NCBI RefSeq assembly: GCF_000497125.1
Contig: NC_090601.1
Coordinates: 868,001-932,000, forward strand
DNA length: 64,000 bases
Source: Spironucleus salmonicida
Taxonomy: Eukaryota
Direction: 5' to 3'
This document shows positions 888 through 54,311 of this stretch, piece by piece (the first letter of the stretch is position 1; each line of letters begins with the position of its first letter). The notes beneath the pieces were generated by a model. It was not told the origin of the DNA. It was given only the letters and a program-made list of their open reading frames with translations, and searched no databases. The position numbers and the translations under genes were made by a program.

Positions 888-3647
888 TCATATTAAAACA
901 ATACTAAATATAATTTTATGATTCTTGGATTAATCAAAATTAATTAAGATCAAGTATACCAGTTATTTCTTCTGGTCCTCGACCTCCTGGACGACGACCT
1001 TGCTGAGTGCTGCGACGCGGGTGTTGCGCCCCTTCAGGGACTGGTCCAGGAACAGCGTCTTCTGGATCTCCAGTTCGGAGTTGTCGGCCTTCTGTGCCAT
1101 CCTCTCGTCCTTCTCCCGCTGCTTCAGGCCCTCCTTCTTGAGATTATAGTCGTCGATGAAGGTGTTCTTGCTGATTCGCTGGTCGTCCAGGTCCTGGTAG
1201 ATGGCACTTGGGTCGATCCAGGCATCGTTTCGCGTCCTCCTTACCACATTCACCGCGCGAGTGCTCTGATTAAAGTTGCCTACGTCGTTGCCCTCCTTAC
1301 CCTCCAGGCGCTGGTTCTTCTTCTTCACAAAGTCGGAGCGCCCCAGGTCGGCCCTGAGGTACGCGGAGTCGACAATAAAGTTGCGGAAGTCCGCAGGGGC
1401 AGGGGCGCAGGAGATCTGGAGATAGCGTACCAGCAGGGGGGATACCGAGGCCACGTGTATTTTCTGATTAGTGATACGAAGTGGGTGGGACTTCAGCGTT
1501 TCAATAGCATCGGTCTGCGGCTTCTCCTGGCTCTGCACCGACTTGATCTAGGGGAGCGGCTTGTAAATTTTCTGTGAGTGTGTAGTTTTGACGGACGATA
1601 TCGCGCTATTAATGATGGTCTCGTAGTTCTCGTCATGGATGTTGATAATGATGTCGTTGTTAGTGGCCACCTCGTTCTGAATGACCTGCTGGATGTGGGT
1701 ATCCTGCGGTCCGAACTTGTGGTACTTTGGGGGCAGACGTATGATGAAGGTATTATCGATGGTCATGGAGTTGGTCTTCTGGTCGATCTTGGGAGTATCC
1801 AGCTACGTCAACCTGAGCGAGTTATCTTGCGCGTCGGGAGGCGGCTGTTACTTGTACGCCTCGATATCGGACTGCACCATATCCTCATACTTGTAGGACT
1901 TCTTCGTCTTCTTGACTTCCTTCTTCTCCTCGAACTGTATCTGGGTATATTTCACCGACGGCTCTTGGACGTCGTCCAGATCGTATATCTTCGCGTTCTG
2001 CCTATTCTTAGCCTGGTAGTACATCTGTTCCTCTGTTTTTTTGGTTTTCTCGGTTAGCTTCGCAGTGTTGTCAAGGTTTTGTAACGTCGACCTCGGAACG
2101 GCATGCCTTACTACCTTGATGGCTTCTGCGTTCATGGCCGAAGTCAGGGACGGAAAGATATTCTAATTCTGCTGATTGCTCTGAAACAATAGCTGCGGGG
2201 TAATATGATTGATAGCCTTCGACTTGTTGAAGACCTGGGTGTTCCTGATTGATGATCGATCCACTGAAAAATTATTGTTTATATTGACCAGCTCATCAAA
2301 AAGGACAAAGTCAAAGTCGATTGGTTTGATTACTGCAGAATATGTGATGGCACCCTCGTCCAGCTAGTTCTAATTTTGCTCGTCAGATTTGTAGAACTGG
2401 GCGGTCTTTCGCATATTGTCAGATATCTCGGAAGTGCTATTGAAATATTTACCATGGAAGACATTGATTAAATCAACTTGGTCTAATGTTTCTGCACCGA
2501 TTAGTGGCGAACCTGATGGGAGATGATTTGCCACCGAATAAACTGAGCTTATCTAGCTATCCCCGAAAATTGCATAAATTACAGATTTTTAATAGTCTGG
2601 ATAGTTTAATATACCAGAAAATGAATACACTACATTATTATAGAGATCATCAACAAATTTTGGAGAAAATACATGGTGATATTGAGGGAATGTTCTCAAA
2701 AACATTCGGTGAACGGCATTTGCTACAAAATATGGCAAATATTCTTAAATATAATCCTTCTCGCTCCCTCTGCATCCCATCCAACTGCGCTAAATTGTGG
2801 CATAGTCATCCGAAATTCTATTAGATAGGAAGTCGATAACCGATAAATCTTTCTCTTAAATATCTAAATGTTCAGGTAAAATATCCTACCCTTCCCATTT
2901 TTTTCTTTGTATACCAAATTCACTAAACTTTTTTCTACAATTCAACCCATCAAAAATAACAGCCCAAACCAACCAGAAAAGACTCTCTACAAGATCTATA
3001 ATTCTATTATTTAGAAACCATGCACATATTCCTTCATTTAGTTCTGTCTACGCTGCAAATAATGTCAATAACATTGCTAGCCGTGGTCTTGCATCCAAAG
3101 GTGGAATTGGCAAAAAGGATTGAATATCAGTATTTAAAAATGCTGGAATAGGTGTAAAAGATATCTTAATTGGGTCGCATGCTTTAAACATCTACTATTA
3201 AATTCGTAGCTGCTATATAGTGAATTTAGACGCGCCGAATACACTAGTAACAATTTTAAATTAAATAATTTCAAGTTATTTTTTAGTAAATTTCGAAATA
3301 ATAATGGGTTTAATATATTTTTTGTTAATAAATCCTAAGCATTTGTCAGCTGAAAACGAATTGGAGAATATTTTTTGAGAATCTGGAAAAAGACTGTACT
3401 CAATTGCTTCATCTAAAGTAGGTGGTACCCAAGATGGCATAGATGTAACAGATTAATCATTGATGAACTTTTTTGTCTCTCTCAGAGGAGACGTTAATGG
3501 ATTAAGAGATGAAGAACGTTGTTATGTAGTATGATTTGTGCTTACCTATTTTATCTGTGATATATCTATCATTTAAACCATAGACTAATTTTATAGCTGC
3601 ATAAGTTAGTTGGCAAGAAGTTCGGTTTCATTTTTGCGGGTTTTCAT
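888..3647 (-). pseudogene. 3'-truncated, chimeric copy of the FAM227-like gene
   Basis: Mirrors 5293-7973; the last ~63 codons are replaced by ~25 codons read from AT-rich flank to TGA at 890-888. Confidence 0.7.
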
Positions 3648-4423
3648 TTTTTGATATCTTATTATTAATTTTCTTATATAATATTATATGTTACATTTTC
3701 TAATAATAATTTAGTGGTAATAATGTATTACTTATATACTGAGATTGGAAAGCCACGTTAACACTAGCCTAAAATAGTCTCTACTTTATTAAGTATGCTC
3801 AACGACCCTAAGTGTGAAATAATTTGATTTTAGGTTAAATTATAATAGCCTTGTTCTAATAATGATATTAAGTTTCCAAATTTTGTAAAGCTAGTATCCA
3901 ATTGATGAATATATGAAACATATTACATTATAATACGTACTTGCATCCACTCCACTATATGCATCGATAGAAGACGCTTCAAGCTGTAATGGATAGGTTA
4001 TTCGATGCAGCAGATGCAGATTAGTCCCAATATCTAGAAATTGCAGAAGTACGTCAGCTTCTGCATAACTTAGATATTAGTATTACATATGAAACAGTAT
4101 AGCTTATTATCGATTTAATTGATATTGACGGAAATGGAAAGTTAGATAAGAAAGAATTTCCGACATTTATATATATTATTGATAACTCTGATACAGATAA
4201 GTTTGCTAGTATGTTTTTCTTTGCAGTTGACTCTCATATGTTAGGATCGCTAAAAGGATGGTAGCTAGAGAAATAAAAGGATAGACTTTTATTAGGAATG
4301 AACACAAAGTAGGCAGAAGCTATTATTTTCACATTTGGAGATAAACTAACCATAAACCATGATGAGTTTGTGGGTATGGTACAGAAGATGACTCTAAAGT
4401 GAATTGGATTCTTTCTAATTTAT
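967..4423. repeat. Inverted repeat 1, left arm (3457 bp)
   Basis: Reverse complement of 4517-7973 (paired coordinates sum to 8940); mirrored ORFs are identical; 93-bp unique spacer. Confidence 0.97.
3959..4402 (+). CDS. Calmodulin-like EF-hand protein (147 aa)
   Basis: EF loops DADQSQYLEIAE and DIDGNGKLDKKE; ends AAG TGA; CCACTCCACTA box before ATG. Confidence 0.88.
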
Positions 4424-4516: not shown

Positions 4517-7500
4517 ATAAATTAGAAAGAATCCAATTCACTTTAGAGTCATCTTCTGTACCATACCCACAAACTCATCATGGTTTATGGTTAGTTTATC
4601 TCCAAATGTGAAAATAATAGCTTCTGCCTACTTTGTGTTCATTCCTAATAAAAGTCTATCCTTTTATTTCTCTAGCTACCATCCTTTTAGCGATCCTAAC
4701 ATATGAGAGTCAACTGCAAAGAAAAACATACTAGCAAACTTATCTGTATCAGAGTTATCAATAATATATATAAATGTCGGAAATTCTTTCTTATCTAACT
4801 TTCCATTTCCGTCAATATCAATTAAATCGATAATAAGCTATACTGTTTCATATGTAATACTAATATCTAAGTTATGCAGAAGCTGACGTACTTCTGCAAT
4901 TTCTAGATATTGGGACTAATCTGCATCTGCTGCATCGAATAACCTATCCATTACAGCTTGAAGCGTCTTCTATCGATGCATATAGTGGAGTGGATGCAAG
5001 TACGTATTATAATGTAATATGTTTCATATATTCATCAATTGGATACTAGCTTTACAAAATTTGGAAACTTAATATCATTATTAGAACAAGGCTATTATAA
5101 TTTAACCTAAAATCAAATTATTTCACACTTAGGGTCGTTGAGCATACTTAATAAAGTAGAGACTATTTTAGGCTAGTGTTAACGTGGCTTTCCAATCTCA
5201 GTATATAAGTAATACATTATTACCACTAAATTATTATTAGAAAATGTAACATATAATATTATATAAGAAAATTAATAATAAGATATCAAAAAATGAAAAC
5301 CCGCAAAAATGAAACCGAACTTCTTGCCAACTAACTTATGCAGCTATAAAATTAGTCTATGGTTTAAATGATAGATATATCACAGATAAAATAGGTAAGC
5401 ACAAATCATACTACATAACAACGTTCTTCATCTCTTAATCCATTAACGTCTCCTCTGAGAGAGACAAAAAAGTTCATCAATGATTAATCTGTTACATCTA
5501 TGCCATCTTGGGTACCACCTACTTTAGATGAAGCAATTGAGTACAGTCTTTTTCCAGATTCTCAAAAAATATTCTCCAATTCGTTTTCAGCTGACAAATG
5601 CTTAGGATTTATTAACAAAAAATATATTAAACCCATTATTATTTCGAAATTTACTAAAAAATAACTTGAAATTATTTAATTTAAAATTGTTACTAGTGTA
5701 TTCGGCGCGTCTAAATTCACTATATAGCAGCTACGAATTTAATAGTAGATGTTTAAAGCATGCGACCCAATTAAGATATCTTTTACACCTATTCCAGCAT
5801 TTTTAAATACTGATATTCAATCCTTTTTGCCAATTCCACCTTTGGATGCAAGACCACGGCTAGCAATGTTATTGACATTATTTGCAGCGTAGACAGAACT
5901 AAATGAAGGAATATGTGCATGGTTTCTAAATAATAGAATTATAGATCTTGTAGAGAGTCTTTTCTGGTTGGTTTGGGCTGTTATTTTTGATGGGTTGAAT
6001 TGTAGAAAAAAGTTTAGTGAATTTGGTATACAAAGAAAAAAATGGGAAGGGTAGGATATTTTACCTGAACATTTAGATATTTAAGAGAAAGATTTATCGG
6101 TTATCGACTTCCTATCTAATAGAATTTCGGATGACTATGCCACAATTTAGCGCAGTTGGATGGGATGCAGAGGGAGCGAGAAGGATTATATTTAAGAATA
6201 TTTGCCATATTTTGTAGCAAATGCCGTTCACCGAATGTTTTTGAGAACATTCCCTCAATATCACCATGTATTTTCTCCAAAATTTGTTGATGATCTCTAT
6301 AATAATGTAGTGTATTCATTTTCTGGTATATTAAACTATCCAGACTATTAAAAATCTGTAATTTATGCAATTTTCGGGGATAGCTAGATAAGCTCAGTTT
6401 ATTCGGTGGCAAATCATCTCCCATCAGGTTCGCCACTAATCGGTGCAGAAACATTAGACCAAGTTGATTTAATCAATGTCTTCCATGGTAAATATTTCAA
6501 TAGCACTTCCGAGATATCTGACAATATGCGAAAGACCGCCCAGTTCTACAAATCTGACGAGCAAAATTAGAACTAGCTGGACGAGGGTGCCATCACATAT
6601 TCTGCAGTAATCAAACCAATCGACTTTGACTTTGTCCTTTTTGATGAGCTGGTCAATATAAACAATAATTTTTCAGTGGATCGATCATCAATCAGGAACA
6701 CCCAGGTCTTCAACAAGTCGAAGGCTATCAATCATATTACCCCGCAGCTATTGTTTCAGAGCAATCAGCAGAATTAGAATATCTTTCCGTCCCTGACTTC
6801 GGCCATGAACGCAGAAGCCATCAAGGTAGTAAGGCATGCCGTTCCGAGGTCGACGTTACAAAACCTTGACAACACTGCGAAGCTAACCGAGAAAACCAAA
6901 AAAACAGAGGAACAGATGTACTACCAGGCTAAGAATAGGCAGAACGCGAAGATATACGATCTGGACGACGTCCAAGAGCCGTCGGTGAAATATACCCAGA
7001 TACAGTTCGAGGAGAAGAAGGAAGTCAAGAAGACGAAGAAGTCCTACAAGTATGAGGATATGGTGCAGTCCGATATCGAGGCGTACAAGTAACAGCCGCC
7101 TCCCGACGCGCAAGATAACTCGCTCAGGTTGACGTAGCTGGATACTCCCAAGATCGACCAGAAGACCAACTCCATGACCATCGATAATACCTTCATCATA
7201 CGTCTGCCCCCAAAGTACCACAAGTTCGGACCGCAGGATACCCACATCCAGCAGGTCATTCAGAACGAGGTGGCCACTAACAACGACATCATTATCAACA
7301 TCCATGACGAGAACTACGAGACCATCATTAATAGCGCGATATCGTCCGTCAAAACTACACACTCACAGAAAATTTACAAGCCGCTCCCCTAGATCAAGTC
7401 GGTGCAGAGCCAGGAGAAGCCGCAGACCGATGCTATTGAAACGCTGAAGTCCCACCCACTTCGTATCACTAATCAGAAAATACACGTGGCCTCGGTATCC

Positions 7501-7973
7501 CCCCTGCTGGTACGCTATCTCCAGATCTCCTGCGCCCCTGCCCCTGCGGACTTCCGCAACTTTATTGTCGACTCCGCGTACCTCAGGGCCGACCTGGGGC
7601 GCTCCGACTTTGTGAAGAAGAAGAACCAGCGCCTGGAGGGTAAGGAGGGCAACGACGTAGGCAACTTTAATCAGAGCACTCGCGCGGTGAATGTGGTAAG
7701 GAGGACGCGAAACGATGCCTGGATCGACCCAAGTGCCATCTACCAGGACCTGGACGACCAGCGAATCAGCAAGAACACCTTCATCGACGACTATAATCTC
7801 AAGAAGGAGGGCCTGAAGCAGCGGGAGAAGGACGAGAGGATGGCACAGAAGGCCGACAACTCCGAACTGGAGATCCAGAAGACGCTGTTCCTGGACCAGT
7901 CCCTGAAGGGGCGCAACACCCGCGTCGCAGCACTCAGCAAGGTCGTCGTCCAGGAGGTCGAGGACCAGAAGAA
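4517..7973. repeat. Inverted repeat 1, right arm
   Basis: Reverse complement of 967-4423. Confidence 0.97.
4538..4981 (-). CDS. Calmodulin-like EF-hand protein, inverted copy
   Basis: Mirror of 3959-4402. Confidence 0.88.
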
Positions 7974-8166
7974 GTAGATGAATGTGGCAAAGGGAGATTA
8001 GGCACAGGCTATGCTTCTTGATATGCGTGAAGATCTTAAAAAGAAACTTAAATGTGTTGATGTTACAGAGAAAATTGCTAAGACTAATCTATATGCTGAG
8101 AGAAAGAGAAAGGATAAAATGGAAGATATTCTATTGAGATCTAATAGTAAGAGGGAATAATAATGA
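5293..8166 (+). CDS. FAM227-like (FWWh-domain) protein, 957 aa
   Basis: Single frame free of TGA joining track ORFs 6805/7174/7402; ESLFWLVW...NRISDDYA...KDYIQEYLPYFVANAVHRMFLRTFP...FSPKFVDDLYNNVVYSFSG resembles the FAM227 domain. Confidence 0.72.
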
Positions 8167-9916: not shown

Positions 9917-11296
9917 ATGTATTTTTTGATTGACGACCTCAATCCATCTGTAATCCAGGCTGAATATGCTGTACGCGGTAAGATAGTGGCAGAGGCTGCT
10001 CAGATCGAGCAGCAGCTTAAAGCAGGTAAGGAGTTCCCTTTCAAATCCATCGCTTACCTTAATATCGGTAATCCACAGGCACTAGGTATGCCTTACCAGA
10101 CCATGCTAAGAGAATTTATAGCGTTATGCATGGCACCACATATCCTCAAAACTAACACGGAGGCATTCAATCCTGACGCGGTTTCTCGCGCAAAAGACTT
10201 CATCAAGGAGAACCCTGCTGGCATTGGTGCCTATACCAATTCCCTAGGATTCGAATCTGTGCGGAAGCAGGTTGCGGGTTTCATTAAGAACCGTGATGGC
10301 TACGAAGCCGGTGAAATATTCCTTTCTAACGGTGCCTCGTCGGCCATCAGAGATGTCATATAATTAATTTCTGGACCTGAGTTCCATTTCTTCCTACCAG
10401 TTCCCTAGTATCCTCTGTATTCGGCCGCTCTTGCGTTGAACTCTGCTGACTACGTAAACTATTATTTGGACGAGGAAAACCAGTGGAAGGTTACGGTTAA
10501 GGAACTCAAGCGCGCGTATGCTGCTGCAAGGCACCAACCTAAAGCCATTATCTTGCTTAACCCATCAAATCCCACAGGTTCTATCCTAACCCAGACCGAG
10601 CTGCTCGAGATCATCGAGTTCTGCCACCAGCACACGATAGCCATCTTGGCGGACGAAGTGTACCAGGAGAACATCTACTACGGTGAGTTCGTCTCTGTAA
10701 AGAAGGCCCTCAAGGTATTTGAGGAAACTCGCAAATGCCAGGGACCAGTGGTATTTAGCTTCCACTCGGTGTCCAAGGGCTACTTAGGAGAGTGCGGTCT
10801 GCGTGGCGGTTTCATGGAAGTCGTAAATGGCTCGAAAGGGCTCATGGAGAACCTACGCAAACTCGCCTCTATTAGCCTCTGCAGCAACACAACGGGTCAG
10901 CTAGCCGTCTCGATGATGGTCGACCCTATCCTGAACGCTACGTGGAAAACCGAAAAAGAGTCCAAACTAGGCCTAATGAAGCAGAAAGCGGACAAGATGA
11001 GCAGGCTGCTCAACACCCAGCACATGAAGTGTCAGCCTATCACGGGTGCTATGTATGCATTCCCCCAGATATTCTTACCGGCCAAGTTCGTCTAGGCGCA
11101 CGAAAACCCTAATCTTGAGTGGTGCGTTTAGCTGCTCCGGACTCGCGGTGTGGTTGGAGTACCAGGAAACGGCTTCCTGCAGGTTGCAGGTACCTACCAT
11201 GTCCGCTTCTCGGTGCTGGAACGTGCGGAAAAAATGGATGGTCTGATAGCGAGCATCACGGAGTTCCACGAAGAGCTCTGGAAGGAGTGGGAGTGA
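9917..11296 (+). CDS. ALT: Alanine aminotransferase (PLP fold type I), 459 aa
   Basis: YAVRG, LNIGNPQ, NPSNPTG, LADEVYQEN, SFHSVSKGYLGECGLRGG (PLP Lys), GAMYAFP, GTYHVRF; internal TAA/TAG read as Gln. Confidence 0.96.
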
Positions 11297-11346: not shown

Positions 11347-11559
11347 TCGCTTAGTCAAACCTGCCTCATTTATACGCTCGGTCTCCCGTTTCAAAATTTG
11401 TGCAAATTCCTCTCGCAGCTGAACAATATTTTCACTGTTTTTCTCCTCGAACTCTGCCATTTTTTCTGTCATCAATTTAATAAATTTCTGATTCTCTAAT
11501 ATGAGCTTTTCTTGCATTTCGTTCTTCTTCTTTTTGGCCTAGGCAAGTGTAGTTTGGAG
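11347..11559 (-). pseudogene. 5'-truncated fragment of the coiled-coil gene at 52046-52408
   Basis: Homology starts mid-gene; the stop TGA has become CGA. Confidence 0.75.
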
Positions 11560-11686
11560 ATTATTAATAGAAAAATTTAGCTGCAAGTTTAATCCACCTT
11601 GATAAAGGTATGAATTAACGGTAATAGTATCAAAATATTACTAGGAACACACTAAAAGTCAAAAAATATTACAAAAATTAGTAAAG

Positions 11687-12883
11687 ATGAAGAATTTGTT
11701 TAAATATTTCTTCCAAAAATCATCAAATATTTAGCTTCAAGTGCTAGTATTAGAGGTATTTCTATGTAAATACGGAATTTATATTTTAGGAAAATAAGTA
11801 TTTTCTAACTCCTTATTAACAGCCACCTTAATATTTTGTCATGTATAGTCGGTTTTTTTTGAGAAGTCAAAATATGATGTCATTACTGCATTAATTGTTA
11901 TTAAAGCTTACTTTAGTGACCACAAATCTATAGCTTCATTTTTAAATACTTAACAATTAGTATCTTACATGAAAAATGGTTCATTAAAGTACTAAATTTG
12001 TAGAGCCATAAAATTGTACATTTTGACTCAACTTAACCCAAACGGATATAAATAAATTAGTCATAAAAAGAATTAAATTAAATATATGATTATATATAAT
12101 AATAAATCGAATACTAATTTAATGCAGGATAATTGCGTAGAAAGCCATACAGGACAAAAAATATAAGTAAAAGATCAAGCGTAAACCCTTCAATAGTAAA
12201 AGCAAAATAAGCGAATAAGGCCTAAAAAATATAAATAATAATAGAAAACAAATATCAATATTTTGAATCTAAATAATTTAACTATTGTTGACTTGGAATG
12301 CTTCTAAAACCTATAAGTATCTGAAGTCGGAGCAGTCCGTATATATAAAGGCCAAATAGTTGCATAATTACATTCACTTGTTAAATAGGAACCAAAAATT
12401 CCAGATAATTCCTTTTACGGCTCTTTAATGACAAAAATTTAGTATAGCCATGTAACAAATGGAATGTAGTAATCAGATATTAAGCAACTACTATAAGAAT
12501 TTTCTACATTATCTTCGGATGAATTAAAATCATATAACACAGTTAAATTATTTTCTAAGTTTTAATAAGAGAAAGCAACTTACATGGCAAAAGGACCTGG
12601 ATTAGAAAGATAGATAACAAAATTTGCATTTTAAGACTCAGATATTTTCATTAAGTAAGATAGAGCTTTTTACCATGGCACTGAGCGCTCAGATATAGAT
12701 TGGTGTGATTTCCACAAAACAGTTGAACATAAAACTTATTTTAGGAAAAAAAATTCTCCTTAGCCAGAGCTTATGCATTGTGCACTAGATGATTGCTATG
12801 TTGTAGCCAAGGCAATAGTAAAGTTATCATCTGAGACTAGTCTATAAGACATGTAGTAAATTGAAAATAATTTTTAAAAGTGA
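11687..12883 (+). CDS. DEDDh (DnaQ-fold) nuclease with Maelstrom-type ECHC residues, up to 398 aa (start uncertain; alternative ATG at 12122)
   Basis: TIVDLECF, VSEVGAV, YMAKGPGLE, WCDFHK, MHCALDD; frame checked codon by codon from 11603 to TGA at 12881-12883. Confidence 0.78.
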
Positions 12884-13249
12884 AATATTATATTGCAGTT
12901 TTAATAATAATTTAAGTCCATATTGAAATCATGGTTATCTGGTATCCAGACTGTTGTTAGTATAAAAAATTATTTTAGCGTTATTTTAAGCAATTTTTAT
13001 CATCAGCAGTACACTTATACACTAAATGCAAACCAGACATCATTTCTATATTTTTTCATTATATAACCCTAAAATATCGCACTAGTCTTTTGTACTAGCT
13101 CCCTTACACAGCATCCTCAAAATCCTACAGTCAACTTTCCAAAAACTCTATTTACCCCATATTAACTTAATATTATACAGTATACTCATCATTACTTTTC
13201 CCTTCCATATTACCACTTATAGATATCTACCCATCCCCCAAATTCCAGA

Positions 13250-52045: not shown

Positions 52046-52408
52046 ATGACCTAAAAAGAGAAAGTCCCGAAATTCAGCACAGATTTCCATGTGAAACTCT
52101 ACAATTAGATAACACGTTAAATAATGAAGCAATGTTTCATGATTAAAAAGAGCACCAAGCAGCTTAACAATTGTAATTACGCAGAACGGACTCAGCTCCA
52201 AACTACACTTGCCTTGGCCAAAAAGAAGAAGAACGAAATGCAAGAAAAGCTCATATTAGAGAATCAGAAATTTATTAAATTGATGACAGAAAAAATGGCA
52301 GAGTTCGAGGAGAAAAACAGTGAAAATATTGTTCAGTTGCGAGAGGAATTTGCACAAATTTTGAAACGGGAGACCGAGCGTATAAATGAGGCAGGTTTGA
52401 TTAAGTGA
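52046..52408 (+). CDS. Coiled-coil hypothetical protein (120 aa)
   Basis: Extends the track ORF upstream through TAA/TAG to ATG 52046; C-rich box; AAG TGA end. Confidence 0.72.
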
Positions 52409-53838
52409 GAGAAATTATAACCGCTCAATTTTGGTTCTTCGAGCAATAATAGAAAGTCTCACTCCCACTCCTTCCAGAGCTCTTCGTGGAACTCCGTGAT
52501 GCTCGCTATCAGACCATCCATTTTTTCCGCACGTTCCAGCACCGAGAAGCTGACATGGTAGGTACCTGCAACCTGCAGGAAGCCGTTTCCTGGTACTCCA
52601 ACCACACCGCGAGTCCGGAGCAGCTAAACGCACCACTCAAGATTAGGGTTTTCGTGCGCCTAGACGAACTTGGCCGGTAAGAATATCTGGGGGAATGCAT
52701 ACATAGCACCCGTGATAGGCTGACACTTCATGTGCTGGGTGTTGAGCAGCCTGCTCATCTTGTCCGCTTTCTGCTTCATTAGGCCTAGTTTGGACTCTTT
52801 TTCGGTTTTCCACGTAGCGTTCAGGATAGGGTCGACCATCATCGAGACGGCTAGCTGACCCGTTGTGTTGCTGCAGAGGCTAATAGAGGCGAGTTTGCGT
52901 AGGTTCTCCATGAGCCCTTTCGAGCCATTTACGACTTCCATGAAACCGCCACGCAGACCGCACTCTCCTAAGTAGCCCTTGGACACCGAGTGGAAGCTAA
53001 ATACCACTGGTCCCTGGCATTTGCGAGTTTCCTCAAATACCTTGAGGGCCTTCTTTACAGAGACGAACTCACCGTAGTAGATGTTCTCCTGGTACACTTC
53101 GTCCGCCAAGATGGCTATCTCGTGCTGGTGGCAGAACTCGATGATCTCGAGCAGCTCGGTCTGGGTGAGGATAGAACCTGTGGGATTTGATGGGTTAAGC
53201 AAGATAATGGCTTTAGGTTGGTGCCTTGCAGCAGCATACGCGCGCTTGAGTTCCTTATCCGTAACCTTCCACTGGTTTTCCTCGTCCAAATAATAGTTTA
53301 CGTAGTCAGCAGAGTTCAACGCAAGAGCGGCCGAATACAGAGGATACTAGGGAACTGGTAGGAAGAAATGGAACTCAGGTCCAGAAATTAATTATATGAC
53401 ATCTCTGATGGCCGACGAGGCACCGTTAGAAAGGAATATTTCACCGGCTTCGTAGCCATCACGGTTCTTAATGAAACCCGCAACCTGCTTCCGCACAGAT
53501 TCGAATCCTAGGGAATTGGTATAGGCACCAATGCCAGCAGGGTTCTCCTTGATGAAGTCTTTTGCGCGAGAAACCGCGTCAGGATTGAATGCCTCCGTGT
53601 TAGTTTTGAGGATATGTGGTGCCATGCATAAAGCTATAAATTCTCTTAGCATGGTCTGGTAAGGCATACCTAGTGCCTGTGGATTACCGATATTAAGGTA
53701 AGCGATGGATTTGAAAGGGAACTCCTTACCTGCTTTAAGCTGCTGCTCGATCTGAGCAGCCTCTGCCACTATCTTACCGCGTACAGCATATTCAGCCTAG
53801 ATTACAGATGGATTGAGGTCGTCAATCAAGAAATACAT
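52196..53838. repeat. Inverted segmental duplication 3, right copy
   Basis: Reverse complement of 9917-11559. Confidence 0.93.
52459..53838 (-). CDS. ALT: Alanine aminotransferase, second copy (459 aa; R430S)
   Basis: About 99% identical to 9917-11296. Confidence 0.93.
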
Positions 53839-54311
53839 ATCTAAAGAAGATTAATGCTAGGTATATTTATTAATATCATTGAAAACAGGCTCACATACGA
53901 GTTATAAAAGTGAATCTAATTTAATATATACGTTTTTACTACTAAGAAGATTAAGAATAAATTTTATATATGAAATTTTATTAGTACATATTTGAAAATT
54001 ATATTTAAATATTTTAGCGAGGACAACTTTAGTAATTTTTTAAACAAGCTATGTAGTTGTTGTAACAACTAATAAAGAATAATTGTAAATCAACAATGCT
54101 CCTATTTAAAATAAAATTCTTATAAGCTGTTATTTATTACGCAAATTTCCATTTTAAGAATATCATTATTATAATATATATACATATTTTATTGTAATAT
54201 AAAAATGGTACGAACCTTTAAATCACTGCAGATGTGTAGTTTATGAAAAGATAGATATAATAAGTATTTAAACAACAATTAAAAATAATAATCATACTTG
54301 AAATACCTGAA

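What the first reader, a model, noticed from the sequence alone, without database searches (positions are those of the whole stretch)
11687..12883. Maelstrom-like nuclease with both DEDDh and ECHC residues, invisible to the standard-code ORF track
Seen: ExoI D-L-E (TIVDLECF), a second Glu in SEVGAV, AKGPGLE at the ExoII position, WCDFH, and ExoIII HCALDD. Established: Maelstrom domains are DnaQ-fold nucleases with a Glu-Cys-His-Cys Zn site, and protist versions such as Entamoeba keep the DEDD(h) residues too. Inference: this is an ancestral-type MAEL nuclease in a diplomonad, possibly acting in small-RNA silencing or RNA turnover. It sits between large inverted repeats that could yield dsRNA, and its 5' region abuts a duplication breakpoint at 11559.
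Basis: partly seen in the sequence, partly recalled or inferred. Interest (0 to 1): 0.75.

Follow-up and report, generated by a model that had tools for sequence, protein, structure and literature searches.

The report
Maelstrom-type nuclease family without RNAi
A fish-parasite gene encodes a probable RNA-trimming enzyme with the zinc site of the animal piRNA factor Maelstrom; it is one of eight related genes in an organism in which no RNA-interference machinery has been found, so the enzyme family probably works without it.

Summary
The motifs are real. The gene is probably 12122-12883 (253 aa, table 6), not 11687; a poly(A) tail follows 14 nt after TGA. It has a DnaQ fold with D-E-E-H-D catalytic residues (Glu at ExoII) and E, C-x2-H, C in Maelstrom's zinc register. 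It is one of 8 paralogous genes (10 loci) in this genome, whose paralogues are labelled Spironucleus salmonicida; relatives occur in Hexamita and Trepomonas. ECHC is invariant in 19 of 19 family domains; the C-x2-H...HC tail is in 0 of 18 generic DnaQ. A compact paralogue's model ranks the three Maelstrom structures first of 48,161 chains (Z 13.4-14.4). The window protein's own model ranks generic DnaQ first, and it misses Pfam Maelstrom. Small-RNA silencing is unsupported: no Piwi, RNase III, RdRP or PAZ match here, as published for the species. The inverted repeats are ordinary duplications. Best reading: an Argonaute-independent 3'-5' exoribonuclease, possibly preferring dsRNA like trypanosome RIF4, which is lost wherever RNAi is lost; here the family expanded instead. 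No activity is shown. The scan had no look-alike stretch, only one unconfirmed 'Maelstrom-like' note elsewhere in this genome. New variant; interest 0.55.

The parts
12122..12883 (+). Probable coding sequence, 253 aa (table 6): MAEL-type zinc DEDDh nuclease
   Evidence: Public record P0006 starts at this Met; codon-position GC and shuffles; putative RNA contigs lie on 12120-12897
11687..12121 (+).
   Evidence: GC 0.23 at all three codon positions, open in 8.8% of shuffles; no Pfam match
12122..12259 (+). Short Gln/Lys-rich basic N-terminal segment (46 aa); may help bind RNA or target the nucleus (inference)
   Evidence: Sequence
12260..12838 (+). DnaQ/RNase H-fold nuclease domain
   Evidence: AlphaFold2 pLDDT 86.8; VIA Z 10-12.5 to DEDDh nucleases, Maelstrom and arenavirus NP; Pfam RNase_T E=0.0077, below cut-off
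12290..12298 (+). ExoI D57-x-E59 (253-aa numbering), catalytic metal ligands
   Evidence: D in 19 of 19 and E in 18 of 19 family domains
12323..12325 (+). E68 on strand beta2, first ligand of the ECHC zinc site
   Evidence: 19 of 19 family domains, but also 11 of 11 generic DnaQ; lies in strand E20-29 of the model
12587..12607 (+). ExoII motif A-K-G-x-x-L-E162 (Glu where DnaQ has A-H-N-x-x-F-D)
   Evidence: E in 19 of 19 family domains and 5 of 5 Maelstrom-type set; D in 10 of 11 generic DnaQ
12704..12715 (+). C195-x2-H198, zinc ligands 2 and 3
   Evidence: 19 of 19 family domains; C-x2-H...HC tail in 0 of 18 generic DnaQ; H on a short helix in the model, as eta2 in Bombyx MAEL
12776..12793 (+). 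ExoIII H219-C220-A-L-D-D224: catalytic His and Asp plus zinc ligand 4
   Evidence: Cys four residues before the ExoIII position, as Bombyx C302/R306; DNA pattern for HCALxD hits 10 places in the genome, all family loci, control 2
12879..12897 (+). AGTGA stop/polyadenylation signal and poly(A) site 14 nt after the stop
   Evidence: Non-templated A9 loose end at 12897 in run X3; matches the signal described in PMC3916229
9906..11559 (.). Context, not part of the gene: left arm of a 1654-nt inverted duplication (partner 52196-53849) carrying an aminotransferase gene 9917-11296

Best explanation
The gene encodes a catalytically intact Maelstrom-type (ECHC) DEDDh nuclease, one member of a family expanded in hexamitine diplomonads (Spironucleus, Hexamita, Trepomonas). 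Shown: coding frame, a poly(A)-ended contig, DnaQ fold, conserved catalytic and zinc residues, 8 paralogous genes. Inferred mechanism: D57, E59, E162 and D224 hold two Mg/Mn ions and H219 activates water to remove nucleotides from 3' ends, while E68, C195, H198 and C220 bind a structural zinc that pins the ExoIII loop to the sheet. Inferred substrate: RNA, likely duplex or structured ends, as for the assayed relatives (Entamoeba MAEL, trypanosome RIF4, Lassa NP). Inferred role: Argonaute-independent trimming or decay of RNA, with paralogues aimed at different substrates by their varied N-terminal domains.
For: ECHC and ExoII Glu in 19 of 19 family domains; H and D of ExoIII in 18 of 19. Tail absent from 18 of 18 generic DnaQ. 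Paralogue P0010 model (pLDDT 90.2): Maelstrom 4ybg Z 14.4, 9nhc 14.3, 5af0 13.4 are ranks 1-3 of 48,161, next generic 12.8; Foldseek TM by query 0.64-0.73 for Maelstrom rows against 0.51-0.64 for the other listed rows. P0010 is the same family: a profile built without it scores it 65.5 bits, above all 11 generic controls (best 40.8). The family profile retrieves Pfam-Maelstrom proteins P0062 (81.1 bits) and P0053 (33.9 bits) and aligns them over the whole domain, while generic DnaQ align mostly in the N-terminal part. Three family members hit Pfam Maelstrom weakly at the C-x2-H...HC stretch. A relative has an RRM-type N-terminal fold. Assayed relatives are ribonucleases. No RNAi core found, while the same search finds CAF1.
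Against: The window protein's own model ranks generic DEDDh first (DinG exo Z 12.5, ExoX 11.7, epsilon 11.3-11.6) ahead of Lassa NP 10.9 and Maelstrom 10.6; no Maelstrom chain is among the 42 Foldseek rows shown. No Pfam Maelstrom match. Profile-profile scores tie (119.8 to the Maelstrom-type set, 125.2 to generic DnaQ). With six motif columns masked, 10 of 19 rows are closer to the Maelstrom-type set and the window protein is closer to generic DnaQ (0.22 against 0.56). The His of MAEL's H-G/D-I/L-P motif is Thr here. Ligand geometry could not be measured. No activity, substrate or partner is shown. Expression rests on contigs of one study.
Confidence: 0.65

Rival explanations
1. The family comes from a bacterial DnaQ/PolC-type exonuclease by lateral transfer, gained its Cys/His site convergently, and acts on DNA (repair, proofreading or salvage).
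For: Best sequence and fold hits of the window protein are bacterial DNA exonucleases. Its N-terminal half is closer to generic DnaQ (0.90 against 0.20). Lateral transfer is reported for diplomonads (titles in search listing).
Against: Needs six matching motif changes (K, G, Glu at ExoII, C, H, C) in the same register as Maelstrom-type proteins. A paralogue's fold prefers Maelstrom. The Maelstrom-type control alignment also returns PolC exonuclease as its only PDB hit, so that ranking does not discriminate. The tree separates generic DnaQ from all ECHC rows, 99/98 (motif columns included, no outgroup).
Confidence: 0.15
2. One reading: a cofactor of small-RNA silencing, working like RIF4 with an Argonaute too divergent to have been detected, possibly on dsRNA from the inverted repeats.
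For: Trypanosome RIF4 is essential for RNAi and prefers dsRNA. The window holds three long inverted repeats. Genome family searches miss weak members: PF00929 found none of these nucleases.
Against: No Piwi, RNase III, RdRP or PAZ match (the RdRP and PAZ controls were blank, so those two are weak). Two papers report no Dicer or Argonaute. Duplicated regions make up 19.2% of the species' assembly.
Confidence: 0.1
3. A catalytically weak or dead RNA-binding MAEL module, as in animals.
For: ExoII is Glu rather than Asp. Some relatives carry extra copies of the domain that have lost the ExoI acids. Bombyx MAEL binds RNA without cutting.
Against: All five catalytic positions are kept in 18 of 19 family domains, which implies selection on catalysis. 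Glu at ExoII occurs in nidoviral ExoN motifs (PMC7968707 legend).
Confidence: 0.1

Closest known systems
Protist MAEL, Entamoeba histolytica EHI_192630 (PMC4408791, PMC2628886)
   Same: DEDD(h) catalytic set together with ECHC; lineage-specific expansion (five copies in Entamoeba); exoribonuclease activity shown for the amoeba protein.
   Different: Glu at ExoII; Thr in place of one of the extra MAEL histidines; 13-residue insert between H198 and H219; below the Pfam Maelstrom cut-off; host lacks detectable RNAi. Entamoeba sequences were not retrieved, so no direct alignment was made.
Trypanosoma brucei RIF4 (PMC3359990)
   Same: DEDDh 3'-5' exonuclease that the paper ties to the Zhang 2008 Maelstrom screen; H472/D477 spacing equals H219/D224; distributive, Mg-dependent, prefers dsRNA.
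   Different: RIF4 is single-copy, loads AGO1 and is found only in RNAi-proficient trypanosomatids. Here there are 8 genes and no Argonaute was found. ECHC in RIF4 was not checked here.
Animal Maelstrom MAEL domain (PDB 4ybg, 5af0, 9nhc; Pfam PF13017)
   Same: Fold and ECHC zinc register; top three structural matches of paralogue P0010.
   Different: Animal MAEL lacks DEDD, carries an HMG box and works with Piwi; none of these applies here.
Arenavirus nucleoprotein ExoN (PDB 3r3l, 4o6h, 7v39)
   Same: DEDDh plus ECHC zinc finger (PMC7968707 passages); dsRNA-preferring exoribonuclease (PMC13483370 abstract); Z 9.4-10.9 and weak profile hits at the C-terminal motif.
   Different: Viral, fused to a nucleocapsid domain; no significant sequence similarity (E 0.7 or worse).
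Generic DEDDh exonucleases (DnaQ epsilon, PolC exo, DinG exo, ExoX, ERI1; Pfam PF00929)
   Same: Fold, ExoI D-x-E, the beta2 Glu, ExoIII H-x4-D; best raw hits of the window protein.
   Different: They have A-H-N-x-x-F-D at ExoII and H-R-A-L-D-D at ExoIII, and 0 of 18 have the C-x2-H...HC tail.

Membership tests
DEDDh (DnaQ-H) 3'-5' exonuclease superfamily | RNase H-like DnaQ fold | tested here: met
   Model pLDDT 86.8; Z 12.5, rmsd 2.9, 158 aligned to DinG exonuclease
DEDDh (DnaQ-H) 3'-5' exonuclease superfamily | ExoI D-x-E and ExoIII H-x4-D | tested here: met
   D57, E59, H219, D224; kept in 18 of 19 family domains
DEDDh (DnaQ-H) 3'-5' exonuclease superfamily | Acidic residue at ExoII | tested here: met
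   Glu, not Asp, in 19 of 19; same column as the Asp of 10 of 11 generic controls
DEDDh (DnaQ-H) 3'-5' exonuclease superfamily | Metal-dependent 3'-5' nuclease activity | not testable with these tools
   Needs an assay
MAEL domain, structural definition (ECHC; PMC4408791) | E on beta2, C-x2-H, and C four residues before the ExoIII position | tested here: met
   E68, C195, H198, C220; 19 of 19 family domains; H-to-C spacing is 22 here, 9 in paralogue P0010 and in Bombyx
MAEL domain, structural definition (ECHC; PMC4408791) | The four residues converge on one zinc | not testable with these tools
   Model coordinates are not returned; the secondary-structure positions agree with Bombyx
MAEL domain, structural definition (ECHC; PMC4408791) | Fold closer to MAEL than to other DEDDh proteins | tested here: inconclusive
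   Window protein: Maelstrom Z 10.6 below generic 12.5. Paralogue P0010: Maelstrom ranks 1-3, Z 14.4/14.3/13.4, generic 12.8
MAEL domain, sequence definition (EHHCHC; PMC2628886) | Two further conserved histidines | tested here: not met
   The His of H-G-I-P (P0062) / H-D-L-P (4ybg) aligns with Thr, and no row shows His there. Which two His the paper means is my inference, as its figures are not held.
Pfam PF13017 Maelstrom | Score at or above 22 bits | tested here: not met
   No match for the window protein; relatives P0010 18.6, P0066 17.5, P0043 17.4 bits
Animal Maelstrom (piRNA factor) | N-terminal HMG box and loss of DEDD | tested here: not met
   No HMG match; catalytic residues intact
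RNAi/piRNA cofactor (RIF4-like role) | Argonaute/Piwi and Dicer in the same genome | tested here: not met
   No Piwi or RNase III match, controls rang; CAF1 positive control found; published absence. A very divergent copy is not excluded.
RNAi/piRNA cofactor (RIF4-like role) | Preference for duplex RNA | not testable with these tools
   Needs an assay

The most novel reading that the evidence does not exclude
Hexamitine diplomonads lost Dicer, Argonaute and RdRP but kept and multiplied the MAEL/RIF4-type exonuclease into a stand-alone dsRNA surveillance system. It would clear duplex RNA from inverted duplications, antisense transcripts, transposons or RNA viruses, and might control the cysteine-rich surface genes that Giardia controls by RNAi. 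Some relatives also repeat, independently of animals, the switch from active nuclease to zinc-only MAEL domain.
Probability: 0.15. Interest if true: 0.85.

Novelty: new variant of a known kind. Interest (0 to 1): 0.55.

Why it matters
The characterised cellular MAEL proteins I read about are tied to Piwi or Argonaute, and in trypanosomatids RIF4 is present only where RNAi is. A catalytically intact MAEL-type family expanded to 8 genes in a eukaryote without detectable RNAi would separate the enzyme's own function from silencing. That makes the ancestral role of Maelstrom testable in a culturable protist. It also names a family now labelled 'hypothetical' in three diplomonad genera and gives candidates for RNA control in a fish parasite whose surface-gene regulation is unexplained.

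Tried and rejected
Pfam scan of the window protein: no Maelstrom match. NCBIfam: only weak bacterial DEDD models, all far below cut-off. Single-sequence homologue search found only the protein itself. ESM Atlas features gave unnamed clusters at 0.92-0.93, one viral 'Exonuclease' and one Rv2179c-like, none Maelstrom. A search with the Pfam-positive P0062 domain returned only itself, so no named Entamoeba, trypanosomatid or animal MAEL sequence was available for alignment or tree. The tree (P0047 dropped because the slicing pattern failed) has three groups and no outgroup, so it cannot show which two are sisters. Viral contigs: 48 pattern matches, 0 confirmed. BFVD fold search: generic phage exonucleases first, an arenavirus NP at rank 48. 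PF00929 found nothing in the genome although family members exist, which shows the limited sensitivity of family scans. Run search: no holder on record as RNA. Contigs of the four runs leave 11777-12119 without cover, and one low-depth contig lies on 11609-11776; neither is taken as evidence. No joints pointing to hairpin transcripts were listed. No long inverted repeat within 8 short family loci, though two genes sit in larger inverted duplications. No Giardia name among the 35 of 42 profile hits whose source I saw; 7 were not looked up and many are unnamed, so absence from Giardia is not shown. No complex prediction was run, as no binding claim is made.

Full report
Observation. The frame 11687-12883 is open only when TAA and TAG are read as Gln (32 such codons), and no ORF of 100 aa is listed there under the standard code. 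The likely gene is shorter. The public collection holds the product as 253 aa starting at Met 12122. The upstream 145 codons have GC 0.23 at each codon position and stay open in 8.8% of shuffles, against 0.8% for the core. In 253-aa numbering the residues are D57, E59 (ExoI), E68, E162 (ExoII), C195, H198, H219, C220 and D224 (ExoIII).

Expression. Four runs of one study, flagged only as probable RNA, give contigs on 12120-12897. One ends in nine non-templated A at 12897, 14 nt after the TGA, and the neighbouring aminotransferase gene shows the same kind of tail. PMC3916229 (passages seen) describes AGTGA overlapping the stop with a poly(A) tail about 14 nt downstream. This is good but single-study evidence of an mRNA.

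Organism and family. Paralogues encoded in the window's genome are labelled Spironucleus salmonicida 'hypothetical protein'. Protein, Pfam and pattern searches of the genome gave 10 loci: the window gene, C6:546787 and C6:578645 (39% identical to it), C1:1220827 and C1:1245213, C3:620754, C3:215867, C3:1440058, C3:170080 and C1:376911. Two pairs are inverted duplicates, so there are 8 distinct genes. A DNA pattern for HCALxD hit 10 places, all family loci, against 2 for the reversed control. A five-sequence profile against 1.84 billion representatives returned 42 proteins. The named top hits are Hexamita inflata, S. salmonicida and Trepomonas sp. PC1 proteins, labelled hypothetical, 'RNase H-like' or 'exonuclease family'. 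The tail mixes generic bacterial-type DnaQ with unnamed proteins that carry the same Cys/His tail.

Is ECHC conserved? In 19 full family domains (8 from this genome, 8 Hexamita, 1 Trepomonas, 2 unnamed) E, C, H, C and the ExoII Glu are invariant; one row has lost three catalytic residues. The C-x2-H...HC...D tail is in 19 of 19 family proteins, 5 of 5 other ECHC-type hits and 0 of 18 generic DnaQ; 1 of those 18 has His-Cys at ExoIII only. The beta2 Glu is in 11 of 11 generic controls, so it is not diagnostic. PMC4408791 (parts 1-2 of 4 read) gives the Bombyx zinc ligands as E137 on beta2, C290, H293 on a short helix and C302, with R306 in the catalytic pocket. The window protein has the same C-x2-H, a Cys four residues before ExoIII, and matching secondary structure in its model. 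Its H-to-C spacing is 22; paralogue P0010 has 9, as Bombyx. I could not measure ligand distances.

Is it closer to Maelstrom than to DnaQ? For the window protein alone, no test says so. Pfam gives RNase_T at 17.2 bits and no Maelstrom. PDB sequence hits are PolC and DnaQ. The model's best matches are DinG exonuclease (Z 12.5), ExoX (11.7) and epsilon (11.3-11.6), then Lassa NP (10.9) and Maelstrom (10.6, 10.4, 10.2). Profile-profile scores tie. With the six motif columns masked, 10 of 19 rows lean to Maelstrom-type proteins and the window protein leans to DnaQ. At family level the evidence is stronger. The compact paralogue P0010, folded with an alignment of family-type sequences, ranks the three Maelstrom structures first among 48,161 chains (Z 14.4, rmsd 2.6, 153 aligned; 14.3; 13.4; next 12.8). 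By Foldseek E-value two DnaQ chains come first, but Maelstrom rows have the highest TM-scores. Leave-out profiles tie P0010 and the window protein to the same family (65.5 and 90.7 bits; best generic 40.8 and 44.6). The family profile aligns P0062 and P0053 end to end; both pass Pfam Maelstrom, while P0060 in the same control set does not. P0062 matches Drosophila 4ybg at E 1.3e-6. That control set also returns PolC exonuclease as its only PDB hit, so 'best hit is DnaQ' does not refute MAEL type. The tree keeps generic DnaQ apart from all ECHC rows (99/98) but has no outgroup. I therefore describe it as MAEL-type and do not file it in PF13017 or under the EHHCHC definition of PMC2628886 (parts 1-3 of 8, section 17 and passages read), one histidine of which is Thr here.

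How it probably works. By established DEDDh chemistry, the four acids hold two metal ions and H219 activates water, releasing nucleotides from a 3' end; the zinc is structural. RNA is the inferred substrate. Entamoeba MAEL with both motifs degrades ssRNA. Trypanosome RIF4 is a distributive, Mg-dependent, dsRNA-preferring 3'-5' exonuclease (PMC3359990, sections 6 and 10 and passages read); that RIF4 is the trypanosome MAEL is my inference from its citation of the Zhang screen. Lassa NP ExoN, which shares ECHC (PMC7968707 passages), prefers dsRNA (PMC13483370 abstract). One relative has an RRM-type N-terminal fold, TM 0.63-0.69 in 10 of 10 listed rows though under the tool's naming bar, and P0062 is RRM plus MAEL. 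The window protein has only a basic 46-residue arm.

Silencing? Searches of the genome found no Piwi (control 2 of 14 genomes), no RNase III (8 of 14), no RdRP and no PAZ (controls blank), while CAF1 was found over cut-off. PMC3916229 reports failure to find Dicer, Argonaute and RdRP in S. salmonicida (passage). PMC11437800 reports no Dicer or Argonaute in its newly sequenced diplomonads (passage). The Hexamita genome paper does not mention them. RIF4 was found as one of five genes present only in RNAi-proficient trypanosomatids. The pattern here is the reverse: RNAi core undetected, MAEL-type family expanded. A very divergent Argonaute is not excluded, since family scans miss weak members.

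Context. The three inverted repeats are real. The nearest duplicates an aminotransferase gene 40.6 kb away and ends 563 nt before the likely start. Contigs that leave the window at 11559 continue into the flank of the second copy. PMC9509377 (passages) puts 19.2% of the species' assembly in duplicated regions. I see no specific link. None of the 20 other window ORFs scanned matched an RNA-silencing or mobile-element family.

Novelty. I found no paper placing Maelstrom in diplomonads. 'Maelstrom' occurs 0 times in the 30 listed of 773 papers; the 7 papers with 'maelstrom' and 'Giardia' look unrelated by listing; the 15 listed of 480 have 0 occurrences; 'maelstrom' with 'RIF4' gave only the RIF4 paper. 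The library lacks most subscription papers. Alignment figures and supplements of PMC2628886, PMC4408791, PMC3359990 and the genome papers were not seen and may bear on the histidine assignment and on existing annotations. The scan's earlier notes hold no look-alike stretch and one unconfirmed 'Maelstrom-like' domain on a ZNF598-like ligase elsewhere in this genome, which I did not test.

Verdict. A real, probably expressed gene of a divergent MAEL-type zinc DEDDh nuclease family, most likely an Argonaute-independent 3'-5' exoribonuclease (0.65). New variant of a known kind. Interest 0.55, rising to about 0.85 if it proves to be a stand-alone dsRNA surveillance system (0.15).

Noticed in passing
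Proteins P0034 (unnamed record, residues about 109-299) and P0030 (Hexamita inflata, residues about 5-174 and 623-796): Extra, degenerate copies of the domain sit beside an intact one. ExoI D-x-E is replaced (A-L-N in P0034, I-N in P0030) while S-E and C-x2-H persist. Drosophila MAEL has A-F-N there, so the animal 'active-site switch' may have recurred in this lineage.
   Followed up: partly
G000 C3:215867 (L014), C3:1440058 (L015); Hexamita P0031, P0036: Long family members (674-810 aa) carry several hundred N-terminal residues without a Pfam match, apparently repeated alpha/beta units; possible RNA-binding modules.
   Followed up: no
G000 C6:546787/578645 (L002, L003) and C1:1220827/1245213 (L006, L007): Two family genes are present as inverted duplicates about 32 and 24 kb apart; the C6 pair lies just downstream of a tRNA-Ser(aga) gene.
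   Followed up: partly
Unnamed proteins P0046, P0047, P0053, P0060, P0062: Metagenomic proteins with DEDDh plus the ECHC tail and a Glu at ExoII, with varied architectures (RRM in P0062); catalytically intact MAEL-type nucleases look more widespread than described.
   Followed up: partly
G000 C4:1352661-1353674 (L029) and C4:1374480-1375493 (L030): CAF1 deadenylase is present as an inverted pair; one copy has an in-frame TGA inside the match.
   Followed up: no
window 964-4423 / 4517-7976 and 15559-18543 / 20979-23963: Two perfect inverted duplications (3460 and 2985 nt, 100% identical; spacers 93 and 2435 nt). The first gives two divergent copies of an FWWh-domain gene that differ only at the C-terminus.
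   Followed up: no
window 23923-25587: Long tandem array with an 8-nt period and strong strand skew, starting at the end of the second inverted repeat.
   Followed up: no
window 9917-11296 and 52459-53838: Aminotransferase class I/II gene (alanine aminotransferase-like, recalled label) duplicated in inverted orientation; contigs show the downstream flank of the second copy.
   Followed up: partly
window 13250-14947: Gln-rich coiled-coil gene downstream, with a C-rich element before its ATG and contigs covering it in 4 of 4 runs; no Pfam match.
   Followed up: no
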